A stretch of 64,000 nt of DNA from a phage: the sequence record PZ386959.1. One strand, given 5' to 3'. This document shows, piece by piece, positions 58,704 through 59,666 of this stretch (position 1 is its first letter; every line of letters starts with the position of its first letter). The notes beneath the pieces are model-generated. The model was not told the origin of the DNA, ran no database searches, and saw only the letters and a program-made list of their open reading frames with translations. A program made the translations under genes and the position numbers.

Positions 58704-58797
58704 CCAGTTTTGACAGAAGACCAATTACAGCAAACTTAATCTTATTCATCTGAAGGTAAATCGGACAAAGAAGAGATTTGGTCTGGTCATTAAGAAT

Positions 58798-58871
58798 TGC
58801 GGGTATAGAGAAAGGGCGTCTCACATGTCTCATTAGCATGGTATCGGCAGGTTCGACTCCTGCACCCGCCT
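58798..58871 (+). tRNA. tRNA-Met(CAT) (Met/fMet/Ile2 undetermined)
   Basis: T-arm GCAGG-TTCGACT-CCTGC, D-stem GAGA/TCTC, anticodon loop CTCATTA; acceptor boundaries uncertain by 1 nt. Confidence 0.5.
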
Positions 58872-58951
58872 CCAATTTTGCAGAAGACCGTATTCAGCAA
58901 CAAAATACTTTTTGCGGATAAAAGAAAAAACACGGTCTGGCAATGTATTAA

Positions 58952-59025
58952 GGTTAGGAAGCACATAAGGTATGTGCGGTCGCCTGTTAAGCGAATGGCA
59001 CAGGGTTCGAATCCCTGACTAACCG
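58952..59025 (+). tRNA. tRNA-Asn(GTT)
   Basis: Acceptor GGTTAGG/ACTAACC, T-arm CAGGG-TTCGAAT-CCCTG, loop CTGTTAA, CCA encoded. Confidence 0.55.
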
Positions 59026-59036
59026 CCAAATTAAAT

Positions 59037-59121
59037 GTGTCGTTATCCCGTAGATGGTAGCGGTGGGGACTGTAAATCCCTTGTCATTGAGACTCGGTAG
59101 GTTCGACTCCTACACGGCACA
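59037..59121 (+). tRNA. tRNA-Tyr(GTA)
   Basis: 85 nt with long variable arm; acceptor GTGTCGT/ACGGCAC, loop CTGTAAA, T-arm GTAGG-TTCGACT-CCTAC. Confidence 0.55.
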
Positions 59122-59129
59122 CCAATAAA

Positions 59130-59204
59130 GGTTATGTAGTTTAATCTGGTTAAAATACTCCCCTGTCACGGGAGATGATGAGGGTTCAAATCCCTTCGTA
59201 ACCG
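59130..59204 (+). tRNA. tRNA-Asp(GTC)
   Basis: Acceptor GGTTATG/CGTAACC, anticodon stem CTCCC/GGGAG, loop CTGTCAC. Confidence 0.6.
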
Positions 59205-59419
59205 CCAAATTATAATAAGTATTTCAAAATGATGTTTTGAGAGGGCTATTTAGCCCCTCCCTTAAAGAGTTCTTACGAGTATTCTTTAAAGGAGCAGAAG
59301 ACCAAATTCAGCAAATATGTATGATATTTTCAAGCCAATTTAATTTTGAAAAAATTTAAAACTTGGTCTGGCTCAACAAATTTACAGAAGACCGTTTACA
59401 GCAAAAACTTAAACAATCT

Positions 59420-59466
59420 ATTTCTCCGGTAAAGAAAAGGCGAAGGTTCGATTCCTTCACTCGGCA
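59420..59466 (+). pseudogene. tRNA-like 3' fragment (degenerate tRNA)
   Basis: Good T-arm GAAGG-TTCGATT-CCTTC plus acceptor-like ACTCGGC but no complementary 5' acceptor found upstream. Confidence 0.35.
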
Positions 59467-59666
59467 GATGTCGAGTTGGTGTAATGGTAGCACTTAAGAT
59501 GATAAACAACGGTCTGGTAATTATCTTTGTAGATAAGTTATTAAGCTTACCTGTGAGTATGCGACCACAAAGGGTGGATGGGTAAATTCTAGATTTAAAC
59601 CCAAAAAGGCACATCGCTACAGACCTTAAGCAAGTCTGGGTAGCTTATCTACAAAGATAATTTAAT

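What the first reader, a model, noticed from the sequence alone, without database searches (positions are those of the whole stretch)
58704..59666. Repeated inter-tRNA spacer elements bounded by CAGAAGACC...GGTCTGG, plus a tRNA-like 3' fragment
At least four spacers (about 58711-58790, 58880-58945, 59290-59375, 59384-59520) start with (G/A)CAGAAGACC(A/G)..T.CAGCAA and end with a complementary GGTCTGG, predicting long stem-closed structures between tRNAs. One of them contains a well-formed T-arm and 3' acceptor (59420-59466) with no matching 5' half. These could be processing signals, small stable RNAs or remnants of tRNA gene turnover.
Basis: seen in the sequence. Interest (0 to 1): 0.5.

Follow-up and report, generated by a model that had tools for sequence, protein, structure and literature searches.

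The report
Phage Y-RNA-like genes between tRNAs
The four repeated spacers in this Felix O1-like phage's tRNA cluster are conserved small structured RNA genes, one of them a circularly permuted tRNA mimic, and they are most likely the unidentified RNA partners of the Ro60-like protein encoded just upstream, which is known to help a close relative resist a bacterial defence.

Summary
Four + strand elements share CAGAAGACCNNWTWCAGCAA...GGTCTGG, against 0.03 matches expected by chance. One detail is wrong: the "orphan" T-arm in element 4 has its 5' half immediately downstream, so the element is a circularly permuted tRNA-like domain.

I fetched 83 phage loci encoding homologues of this protein. 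In 64 of them the same RNA design lies beside the gene on the same strand: a covarying 7-bp stem, a 5' UNCAGCAA motif, a variable loop often holding a tRNA mimic, and a 3' ...CUG.
- A strict descriptor gave 127 hits on the gene strand, 11 on the opposite strand and about 8 in shuffles.
- A covariance model built only from distant phages ranks window elements 2, 1 and 3 as the top three hits in the 64-kb window (E 3e-7 to 8e-5).
- 32 loci have elements but no tRNA nearby.

Best reading: Y-RNA-like partners of a divergent Ro60 clade, released from the tRNA precursor by tRNA processing. They differ from known YrlA RNAs in the conserved motif (CAGCAA rather than CGAA). Nothing in Rfam matches them, and none of the three public records inspected annotates them. 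Binding to the protein is inferred, not shown.

The parts
56964..58379 (+). Gene for a Ro60-like protein of 471 aa (Pfam DUF2828 + DUF7788): an N-terminal helical-repeat domain and a C-terminal vWA domain with MIDAS motif D279-V-S-S-S283. It is the orthologue of Bas63 gp130.
58489..58518 (+). Sigma-70-type promoter-like site (TTGACA-18-TAAAGT with an extended TG) in front of the first tRNA block. A second site lies at 58398-58426. No + strand terminator-like site was found between here and about 59975.
   Evidence: Consensus scan. These are pattern matches only.
58711..58789 (+). Element 1, short Y-RNA-like. Outer stem 58711-14/58786-89; AGA bulge 58715-17; inner stem 58718-24/58778-84; linker UUA; CAGCAA 58728-33; bulged G 58785. 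It lies between tRNA-Glu (ends 58706) and tRNA-Met (starts 58798).
   Evidence: CM R1, built from distant phages, gives 32.3 bits, E 9.5e-6. The sequence-only model gives 13.0 bits.
58878..58943 (+). Element 2, short Y-RNA-like. Outer stem 58878-81/58940-43; AGA bulge 58882-84; inner stem 58885-91/58932-38; CAGCAA 58895-58900; bulged G 58939. It lies between tRNA-Met (ends 58874) and tRNA-Asn (starts 58952).
   Evidence: CM R1 gives 38.3 bits, E 2.8e-7, the best hit in the window. The outer stem shows a compensatory change, UUGC/GCAA to UUAC/GUAA, in relatives.
59292..59374 (+). Element 3, short Y-RNA-like. Outer stem 59292-95/59371-74; AGA bulge 59296-98; inner stem 59299-59305/59363-69; CAGCAA 59309-14; bulged G 59370.
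   Evidence: CM R1 gives 28.7 bits, E 8e-5. In L083 the outer stem changes on both strands and stays paired.
59382..59520 (+). Element 4, long Y-RNA-like with a circularly permuted tRNA-like domain (YrlA-type layout). Outer stem 59382-85/59517-20; AGA bulge 59386-88; inner stem 59389-95/59509-15; CAGCAA 59399-59404. The tRNA-like domain holds a variable/anticodon-like hairpin (59421-37), a T-arm GAAGG-UUCGAUU-CCUUC (59442-58), a closed 7-bp acceptor-like stem ACUCGGC-AGAU-GUCGAGU (59459-76) and a D-arm GUGU-AAUGGUA-GCAC (59479-93).
   Evidence: Fold. Descriptor hit. ARAGORN run on the circularly permuted sequence returns a cloverleaf whose 45-nt 'intron' is the stem/CAGCAA module. RNAalifold on 17 homologues from other phages recovers the basal stem, T-arm and closed acceptor stem, with compensatory changes in 17 of 18 pairs. 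The element is almost invariant across 8 Felixounavirus genomes.

Best explanation
The four spacers are genes for small non-coding RNAs of the Y-RNA type. They are the cognate RNA ligands of the phage's Ro60-like ring protein, encoded 330-1140 nt upstream.

Proposed pathway:
1. They are transcribed from the tRNA-cluster promoter as part of the polycistronic tRNA precursor.
2. The enzymes that mature the flanking tRNAs set them free. RNase P cuts at the 5' end of the downstream tRNA, and 3' trimming follows the upstream tRNA. This predicts species of roughly 75-90 nt for elements 1 and 2; the ends of elements 3 and 4 are less predictable because they lie between hairpins.
3. The shared base is the protein-docking site. 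It consists of the bulged helix that starts AG and ends CU-G, plus the single-stranded UNCAGCAA on its 5' side.
4. The variable upper part is the effector end. In elements 1-3 it is a free-evolving loop. In element 4 it is a tRNA mimic with T-arm, capped acceptor stem, D-arm and long variable arm, and the Y stem sits where the anticodon loop would be. By analogy with bacterial YrlA, this mimic could recruit or decoy tRNA-recognising host enzymes, or tether the protein to an exoribonuclease such as PNPase.

What is shown here: the family exists, it has a conserved and covarying structure, it is strand- and position-linked to the gene, the protein has a Ro60 fold, and element 4 has tRNA mimicry.

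What is inferred: expression as stable RNAs, the processing route, binding to the protein, and the downstream function.
For: Protein:

Linkage of RNA and gene:
- In 83 phage loci carrying a homologue (39-98% identity), a strict descriptor was applied: 7-bp stem, 3-nt linker, C[AC]GCA, 20-190 nt, complementary strand, G. It gives 127 hits on the gene strand, 11 on the other strand, and 8.1 (maximum 13) in shuffles. 64 loci have at least one hit.
- Of 97 distinct elements, 65 lie within 500 nt of the gene, on either side.
- All 69 CM hits with E <= 0.01 over 79 loci are on the gene strand.
- 32 loci have elements but no tRNA gene.

Structure:
- 6 of the 7 stem pairs covary.
- A CM built from 27 elements of distant phages, none from Felixounavirus, ranks window elements 2, 1 and 3 as the three best hits in 64 kb on both strands.
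- The same alignment modelled without base pairs scores 9-14 bits instead of 29-38.
- The outer stems of the four paralogues all differ and all pair.
- Compensatory changes occur in Felixounavirus orthologues, where the base is invariant and the loops drift.

tRNA mimicry:
-. 23 of 37 long elements in other phages contain GTTCRA.

Precedent:
- Bacterial and phage Ro60 genes have adjacent same-strand Y RNAs with a terminal stem, a 5' motif and V-T-AS-D tRNA-like domains (PMC4201824).
- Thermus phage phiLo Ro60 binds two adjacent Yrl RNAs and PNPase (PMC12135203).
- The PhageMaP authors noted the Ro60 similarity of Bas63 gp130 and guessed that Y RNAs hide among the tRNAs (PMC11482910). All four elements are present in Bas63.
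Against: - No expression, end-mapping or binding data exist for these RNAs.
- The conserved motif (UNCAGCAA) is not the CGAA / GNCGAAN0-1G motif of known bacterial and phage Y RNAs. No Rfam family matches. Classification as Y RNA therefore rests on architecture and genetic linkage.
- Bas63 gp130 expressed alone, from a plasmid or from T7, is enough to counter the ppl defence. The RNAs are thus not needed for the one phenotype known for the protein.
- 19 of 83 loci had no strict hit. At least one of these (L084) has relaxed versions.
- The descriptor hits were selected for pairing, so the 100% paired figure is circular. The independent evidence comes from the strand and shuffle controls, the held-out window hits and the orthologue comparison.
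- Overall folding z-scores of the window elements are weak.
Confidence: 0.7

Rival explanations
1. The elements are a real, conserved structured RNA family that does not work through the Ro60-like protein. They might be stand-alone decoys for host tRNA-targeting nucleases, or cis-acting stability or processing modules of the operon transcript. In that case the linkage to the gene would reflect co-regulation or co-inheritance only.
For: - gp130 alone counters ppl without these RNAs.
- The motif differs from known Ro60-binding motifs.
- Many elements carry tRNA mimics, which could act by themselves.
- In this phage the elements sit inside a tRNA operon.
Against: - The only gene consistently next to the elements across the fetched loci is the Ro60-like one. 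The loci come from contigs of about 4 to 385 kb and from several phage groups, and were chosen for having that gene.
- The elements lie on the same strand as the gene, upstream or downstream, and usually within 500 nt.
- This is the same criterion that identified YrlA RNAs.
- The invariant part is the base, not the tRNA mimic. That points to a shared binding partner rather than a shared decoy surface.
Confidence: 0.2
2. The elements are small non-autonomous mobile elements (MITE-like), or targets of a homing nuclease, that have spread into tRNA spacers. The CAGAAGACC/GGTCTGG ends would be terminal inverted repeats.
For: - There are four copies with near-identical ends and variable interiors.
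- Copy number and spacing differ between relatives. L083 lacks element 4, and L002 and L005 carry about 0.5 kb more between elements 2 and 3.
Against: - Across phages the 'inverted repeat' is not conserved in sequence; it covaries to keep pairing.
- All copies are on one strand, the strand of the gene (69 of 69 CM hits).
- No flanking direct repeats are visible.
- The single-stranded CAGCAA motif is conserved on one side only, which is not expected of transposon ends.
Confidence: 0.03
3. The elements are neutral spacers or decaying remnants of tRNA genes left by duplication and deletion in the tRNA cluster.
For: - Element 4 contains tRNA halves.
- tRNA clusters in these phages gain and lose genes.
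Against: - The basal module is invariant while adjacent loop sequence diverges and acquires indels.
- Element 4 is nearly identical over 139 nt in 8 genomes.
- The same permuted layout, with a capped acceptor stem, recurs with different sequences in unrelated phages.
- 32 loci have the elements with no tRNA gene nearby.
Confidence: 0.02

Closest known systems
Bacterial and phage YrlA/YrlB Y RNAs bound by Ro60 (Rsr), as described in Salmonella, Mycobacterium and mycobacteriophages (Chen et al. 2014, PMC4201824)
   Same: - They are encoded within a few kb of the Ro60 gene and on the same strand.
- The 5' and 3' ends pair into a stem, with a conserved motif on the 5' side.
- At least one RNA per locus carries a tRNA-like domain in the order V, T-arm, closed acceptor-like stem, D-arm, with the Y stem taking the place of the anticodon loop. 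Element 4 has exactly this order.
- Shorter paralogues sit beside it, as YrlB does. YrlB shares the 5' motif, and M. smegmatis YrlB also has a possible T-arm.
   Different: - The conserved motif is UNCAGCAA plus an AG...CU-G helix closure, not GNCGAAN0-1G/CGAA.
- The partner protein is from the DUF2828/DUF7788 families and gave no match to any other Pfam family, TROVE included, at E <= 10.
- The RNAs are embedded between tRNA genes of a phage tRNA operon.
- Up to four paralogues occur per genome.
- No Rfam match.
Thermus phage phiLo Ro60 with Yrl1/Yrl2 (PMC12135203; PDB 9KOP, 9L5Y)
   Different: The phiLo RNAs were recognised by their CGAA motif and lie upstream of the gene. No tRNA cluster is reported at that locus. 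The protein is deposited in the PDB as a 'TROVE domain-containing protein' (9l5y).
Metazoan Y RNAs (Y1, Y3, Y4, Y5) bound by Ro60
   Same: Several paralogous RNAs share one conserved bulged terminal helix and differ in their loops. The Felixounavirus elements also have a bulged helix, with a 3-nt bulge opposite a 1-nt bulge.
   Different: The sequences are unrelated (GGUCCGA there). Metazoan Y RNAs are Pol III transcripts with La-binding U tails and no tRNA-like domain.
Circularly permuted tRNA genes and two-piece (permuted) tmRNA
   Same: The 3' half (T-arm and acceptor 3' strand) is encoded before the 5' half (acceptor 5' strand and D-arm). ARAGORN recovers a cloverleaf once the sequence is rotated.
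   Different: The two acceptor strands are joined by a 4-nt loop, so there is no free CCA end unless RNase P cuts. There is no plausible anticodon loop. The opening is occupied by the conserved stem/CAGCAA module. ARAGORN and Rfam call neither a tRNA nor a tmRNA here.

Membership tests
Y RNA / YrlA-type Ro60-associated ncRNA | Encoded close to (within about 4 kb of) and on the same strand as a Ro60 orthologue | tested here: met
   The window elements start 332-1003 nt (and end 410-1141 nt) downstream of the Ro60-like ORF, on the same strand. Across 83 loci there are 127 descriptor hits on the gene strand against 11 on the other. 69 of 69 CM hits are on the gene strand. 65 of 97 distinct elements lie within 500 nt of the gene.
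Y RNA / YrlA-type Ro60-associated ncRNA | 5' and 3' ends pair to form a terminal stem that carries the protein-binding site | tested here: met
   There is a 7-bp stem in which 6 of 7 pairs covary. The stem adds 19-24 bits to held-out window hits. Ounavirinae versions have an extra covarying outer stem and bulges.
Y RNA / YrlA-type Ro60-associated ncRNA | Conserved Ro60-binding sequence: GNCGAAN0-1G (CGAA) in bacteria and phages, GGUCCGA in animals | tested here: not met
   The invariant motif is C-A/C-G-C-A-(A), preceded by U-W (alignment A2). None of the four window elements contains CGAA in the basal module.
Y RNA / YrlA-type Ro60-associated ncRNA | tRNA-like domain with V, T, closed acceptor-like and D arms (YrlA) | tested here: met
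   Element 4 meets this, and homologues in 16 other phage loci share the layout with compensatory changes. Elements 1-3 have no tRNA-like module.
Y RNA / YrlA-type Ro60-associated ncRNA | Physically bound by the Ro60 protein; accumulates as a stable RNA | not testable with these tools
   No RNA-seq or RIP data for Felixounavirus were found in the paper library.
Y RNA / YrlA-type Ro60-associated ncRNA | Match to a curated RNA family model | tested here: not met
   A permissive Rfam 15 scan (E <= 5) of 57000-64000 and a gathering-threshold scan of 10 related loci gave only tRNA, tmRNA and chance hits over the elements.
Ro60 / TROVE protein (for ORF 56964-58379) | HEAT-repeat (TROVE) domain followed by a vWA domain with MIDAS motif, in the Ro60 arrangement | tested here: met
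Ro60 / TROVE protein (for ORF 56964-58379) | Sequence-level match to TROVE or to solved Ro60 chains | tested here: not met
   Pfam at E <= 10 returns only DUF2828 and DUF7788. phmmer and a 36-sequence profile against PDB sequences find no Ro60.
tRNA gene or tRNA pseudogene (for 59420-59466) | Contiguous cloverleaf in canonical order with an anticodon loop | tested here: not met
   ARAGORN does not call it. The Rfam tRNA model gives only a partial 22-bit hit, E 0.55. A cloverleaf appears only after circular permutation, with the stem/CAGCAA module in place of the anticodon loop.
MITE-like mobile element | Sequence-conserved terminal inverted repeats, target-site duplications, both orientations | tested here: not met
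   The ends covary instead of being conserved. Only one orientation is found. No flanking direct repeats are seen on reading the sequence.
Intrinsic terminator | GC-rich hairpin followed by a U run | tested here: not met
   No + strand terminator-like site lies within 58430-59700. The stems are followed by G and mixed sequence.

The most novel reading that the evidence does not exclude
DUF2828/DUF7788 proteins may be a second large branch of the Ro60 superfamily that sequence methods have missed. At least 2,344 protein clusters matched in one capped search, and more than 590 IMG/VR phage loci encode one. Hosts include Felixounavirus, T4-like Vibrio phages and jumbo phages, and the literature also reports DUF2828 proteins in plants.

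On this reading the branch has its own cognate RNA class, which could be called CAGCAA-type Y RNAs. These RNAs use a different recognition motif and repeatedly recruit tRNA mimics in at least three topologies:
- permuted, with a capped acceptor stem;
- canonical order, enclosed by the stem;
- acceptor-less D/anticodon/T modules.

Together they would form an RNP that phages use against RNA- or tRNA-directed host defences. The four Felixounavirus RNAs would be the ligands that the Bas63 gp130 study could not identify.
Probability: 0.55. Interest if true: 0.8.

Novelty: new variant of a known kind. Interest (0 to 1): 0.7.

Why it matters
Ro60-Y RNA particles are a conserved but poorly understood RNA-surveillance system. 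In phages only a few cases have been examined, all of the canonical TROVE/CGAA type.

This locus gives an experimentally tractable model phage group (Felix O1, Bas63 of the BASEL collection) four concrete, unannotated candidate Y RNAs. They sit next to a Ro60-like protein that already has a phenotype, resistance to the ppl defence. It also defines a sequence-and-structure signature that finds the same RNAs next to the homologous gene in 64 of 83 phage loci examined.

This makes three questions directly testable:
- What does this protein bind?
- Does the tRNA mimic recruit or decoy host tRNA enzymes?
- Why are such genes so often placed in phage tRNA clusters?

There are practical consequences for annotation too. 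Two of the three public records inspected place spurious minus-strand ORFs over these RNAs (for example bas63_0137 and AYO145A_047; bas63_0138 lies over the adjacent long hairpin), and the family is absent from Rfam.

Tried and rejected
- Rfam scans of the window region (E <= 5) and of ten related loci found nothing over the elements except a partial tRNA hit to the T-arm region and chance matches.
- Sequence searches of the ORF and of a 36-member profile against PDB chains found no Ro60. Only the predicted structure revealed the relationship.
- The supplement of Chen et al. 2014 listing phage YrlA hits is not held. Two Wolin-lab reviews could not be read. I therefore cannot exclude that a Felix O1-type phage was mentioned there. 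That study searched only genomes annotated with a TROVE domain, an annotation absent from the 60 best-matching records listed here.
- A literature search for Felixounavirus transcriptomes returned nothing relevant.
- A guess at the Bas63 accession failed. A megablast of the ORF then found it.
- "tRNA pseudogene" and "tRNA-OTHER" annotations in relatives refer to tRNA-Tyr, not to the elements.
- The weak CM hit at 28223-28291 (E 0.026) lies inside a 106-aa ORF and was set aside as chance.
- Readings as terminators, MITEs or tRNA remnants were considered and rejected, as set out under the rival explanations.
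Full report
**1. What is in the sequence**

The window is a Felixounavirus (Felix O1-like) genome. The 1.3-kb region is 96-99% identical to dozens of E. coli and Salmonella phages of that genus. ARAGORN finds 26 tRNA genes on the + strand between 58545 and 63556.

CAGAAGACCNNWTWCAGCAA occurs four times (58714, 58881, 59295, 59385), all on the + strand. Shuffles give 0.03 matches on average and never four. Each copy ends with a complementary GGTCTGG.

RNAfold gives all four the same base:
- an outer 4-bp stem that differs in every copy yet always pairs (UGAC/GUCA, UUGC/GCAA, GAGC/GCUC, UUAC/GUAA);
- an AGA bulge on the 5' strand;
- a 7-bp inner stem AGACCNN/NNGGUCU;
- one bulged G on the 3' strand.

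UWACAGCAA or AUUCAGCAA lies single-stranded just inside the stem. Refined limits are 58711-58789, 58878-58943, 59292-59374 and 59382-59520.

**2. The "orphan" T-arm is half of a permuted tRNA mimic**

In element 4 the T-arm (GAAGG-UUCGAUU-CCUUC, 59442-58) is followed by ACUCGGC, a 4-nt loop AGAU, and GUCGAGU. These form a closed 7-bp acceptor-like stem. A canonical D-arm follows (GUGU-AAUGGUA-GCAC, 59479-93).

I rotated the sequence so that the 5' acceptor strand comes first. ARAGORN then returns a cloverleaf with a long variable arm (59421-37). It also reports a 45-nt "intron" in the anticodon loop, which is exactly the stem/CAGCAA module.

The order is therefore stem, V, T, closed acceptor stem, D, stem. 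This is the layout described for bacterial YrlA Y RNAs (PMC4201824).

**3. The neighbouring gene**

The ORF at 56964-58379 ends 166 nt before the first tRNA. It matches only Pfam DUF2828 and DUF7788 and PHROG 850 "RNA-binding protein". Sequence searches against PDB chains find no Ro60.

An AlphaFold model built from 36 homologues (pLDDT 86.9, pTM 0.87) matches Ro60 over its whole length:
- Foldseek's top eight hits are all Ro60/TROVE structures (E 4e-8 to 4e-7, TM 0.55-0.67).
- The MIDAS residues D279, S281 and S283 are invariant.

The ORF is 95.9% identical in DNA to bas63_0130 of phage Bas63. A PhageMaP preprint reports that gp130 is structurally Ro60-like and counters the ppl defence. [quoted passage not shown] Bas63 carries all four elements. 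They lie in the spacers, not in the annotated tRNAs, and elements 3 and 4 are partly covered by the small minus-strand ORF call bas63_0137.

**4. The same RNA follows the gene through very different phages**

The protein family is large. One capped search returned 2,344 clusters, and 591 of 600 sampled IMG/VR stretches encode a relative. I fetched 80 IMG/VR loci plus three Ounavirinae relatives.

Reading the flanks showed a common design:
- 5'-(A)AGG-stem (7 bp);
- N-U-W-CAGCAA(A) (sometimes CCGCAA);
- a variable interior;
- stem'-CCUG-3'.

Ounavirinae relatives bridge this design to the window's version: CAUAGGACU, CAUAAGACU, CAGAAGACC.

Statistics for linkage and strand:
- A strict descriptor gives 127 hits on the gene strand, 11 on the opposite strand and 8.1 (maximum 13) in shuffled loci. 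64 of 83 loci are positive.
- Of 97 distinct elements, none lies inside the gene and 65 lie within 500 nt of it, upstream or downstream.
- 32 positive loci have no tRNA gene within the fetched ±4 kb. The elements therefore track the gene, not the tRNAs.

**5. Independent tests of the structure**

Descriptor hits were chosen for pairing, so I used held-out data. A covariance model (R1) was built from 27 short elements of distant phages, all with 47% or less protein identity and none from Felixounavirus. In that alignment 6 of 7 stem pairs covary.

R1 was run without filters over the whole window on both strands:
- Its three best hits are element 2 (38.3 bits, E 2.8e-7), element 1 (32.3 bits, 9.5e-6) and element 3 (28.7 bits, 8e-5).
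- The next hit has E 0.026 and lies inside an ORF.
- Element 4 is only partly matched because of its long insert.

The same alignment modelled without base pairs scores these sites at 14.4, 13.0 and 9.0 bits. It also picks up the 5' part of element 4 at 12.8 bits. The helix therefore contributes about 19-24 bits in sequences the model never saw.

Over 79 loci all 69 hits with E <= 0.01 are on the gene strand.

For the long forms I aligned 17 elements from different phages. RNAalifold recovers the basal stem, the T-arm and the closed acceptor stem, with compensatory changes in 17 of 18 pairs.

Comparison within the genus (eight close Felixounavirus genomes plus the more divergent relative L083):
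- The basal module is essentially invariant.
- The interiors of elements 1-3 accumulate substitutions and indels.
- Element 4 is almost unchanged over 139 nt in the eight close genomes; L083 lacks it.
- The outer stems show compensatory changes, such as UUGC/GCAA to UUAC/GUAA.

**6. Diversity of the interior**

23 of 37 long elements in other phages contain a T-loop-like GTTCRA. Besides the permuted type, two other arrangements occur:
- Some elements enclose a tRNA-like unit in canonical order (L053 3734-3834, L060 3758-3854; Rfam tRNA 52.9 and 41.3 bits).
- Some enclose an acceptor-less D/anticodon/T module (L053 3849-3936, L060 3866-3960).

tRNA mimicry therefore recurs in this family, as it does in bacterial Y RNAs.

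**7. Mechanism proposed**

Promoter-like sites lie at 58398 and 58489. No + strand terminator-like site lies before about 59975. The elements are probably co-transcribed with tRNA-Pro through tRNA-Ile.

They sit 3-4 nt after the encoded CCA of the upstream tRNA and 8 nt before the next tRNA. RNase P and 3' trimming of the tRNAs would therefore release them as tRNA-sized RNAs. This is inference.

I infer that the invariant base is the docking site for the Ro60-like protein. That base comprises the AG...CU-G helix, the bulges and the single-stranded UNCAGCAA. The interior would be the effector end. In element 4 this is a tRNA mimic that could engage tRNA-recognising enzymes. M. smegmatis YrlA, which also has a 7-bp acceptor stem, is cut by RNase P and receives CCA. 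Alternatively, it could tether an exonuclease, as shown for Ro60-Y RNA-PNPase in Deinococcus and for phage phiLo.

One caveat matters. gp130 alone rescues T7 on ppl hosts, so the RNAs are not required for that phenotype.

**8. Comparison with what is known, and novelty**

The closest known class is the YrlA/YrlB Y RNAs. They share the genomic linkage, the terminal stem with a 5' motif, the V-T-AS-D tRNA-like domain and the presence of paralogues.

The differences are:
- The conserved motif is CAGCAA, not CGAA/GNCGAAN0-1G.
- The partner protein is recognisable as Ro60 only by structure.
- No Rfam family matches.
- The three public records inspected do not annotate the elements.

In the searchable literature the Ro60 likeness of this protein family has been noticed. 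Some records label it "RNA-binding protein" or "vWFA protein". I found no description of the RNAs.

I rate this a new variant of a known kind. It rests on strong comparative support for the RNA family and its linkage. The protein-RNA interaction remains unverified.

Noticed in passing
window 59518-59666 (+): A 149-nt structure directly follows element 4 and abuts tRNA-Lys. It has a perfect outer stem of about 24 bp enclosing several small hairpins (MFE -50.1, z -6.5, 0 of 200 shuffles as stable). The outer duplex looks like an RNase III substrate. One inner hairpin, CAGACC-UUAAGCAA-GUCUGG, resembles a miniature of the element base. It shows a compensatory A-U to U-A change in relative L083 (CAGUCC...GACUGG), where the outer stem also changes on both strands.
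   Followed up: partly
window 59208-59295 (+): Three consecutive hairpins lie between tRNA-Asp and element 3 (MFE -26, z -4.4). The third overlaps the outer stem of element 3 and could compete with it.
   Followed up: no
window 59743-59820, 60080-60221, 60761-60880, 61288-61384 (+): Other tRNA-cluster spacers fold much better than shuffles (z -4.3, -4.1, -4.1, -3.0). They include a hairpin of about 26 bp at 60789-60879. None carries the CAGCAA signature.
   Followed up: no
window 60440-60522 (+): This is a tRNA-like sequence with a 9-bp terminal stem (AUGGGACGA.../...CCGUCCCAU) and a T-arm-like hairpin. ARAGORN does not call it. Its only Rfam match is a weak tRNA-Sec hit (23 bits, E 0.5). It may be an atypical tRNA or another mimic.
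   Followed up: no
L053 3734-3936, L060 3758-3960: Family members whose stem/CAGCAA base encloses a tRNA-like unit in canonical (not permuted) order, or a D/anticodon/T module with no acceptor stem. The tRNA mimic has thus been built in several topologies.
   Followed up: partly
L033 293-616 (+): A permuted (two-piece) tmRNA scores above Rfam's gathering threshold (71.7 bits, E 1.2e-11) on a viral contig, about 3 kb upstream of the Ro60-like gene.
   Followed up: no
window 59396-59614 (-); L082 2479-2736; L087 4030-4304: Public Felixounavirus records annotate small minus-strand 'hypothetical protein' ORFs (AYO145A_047, bas63_0137, bas63_0138) over elements 3 and 4 and the long hairpin. Given the conserved RNA structures on the + strand, these are probably miscalls.
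   Followed up: partly
window 28223-28291 (+): A weak match to the covariance model (18.9 bits, E 0.026) with CAGCAA and an imperfect stem. It lies inside a 106-aa ORF (28036-28356) and is probably chance.
   Followed up: partly
window 56511-56882 (+): A DUF5681 gene directly precedes the Ro60-like gene. The same pair is kept in three other Ounavirinae relatives (L083-L085), so it may be part of the same module.
   Followed up: no
L083 (62% identical protein), 6193-6425: This relative keeps elements 1-3 and the long hairpin but lacks the tRNA-like element 4. L084 has four relaxed-motif copies, and L085 has two, one of them carrying the tRNA-like module. The number and type of paralogues therefore turn over within the subfamily.
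   Followed up: partly
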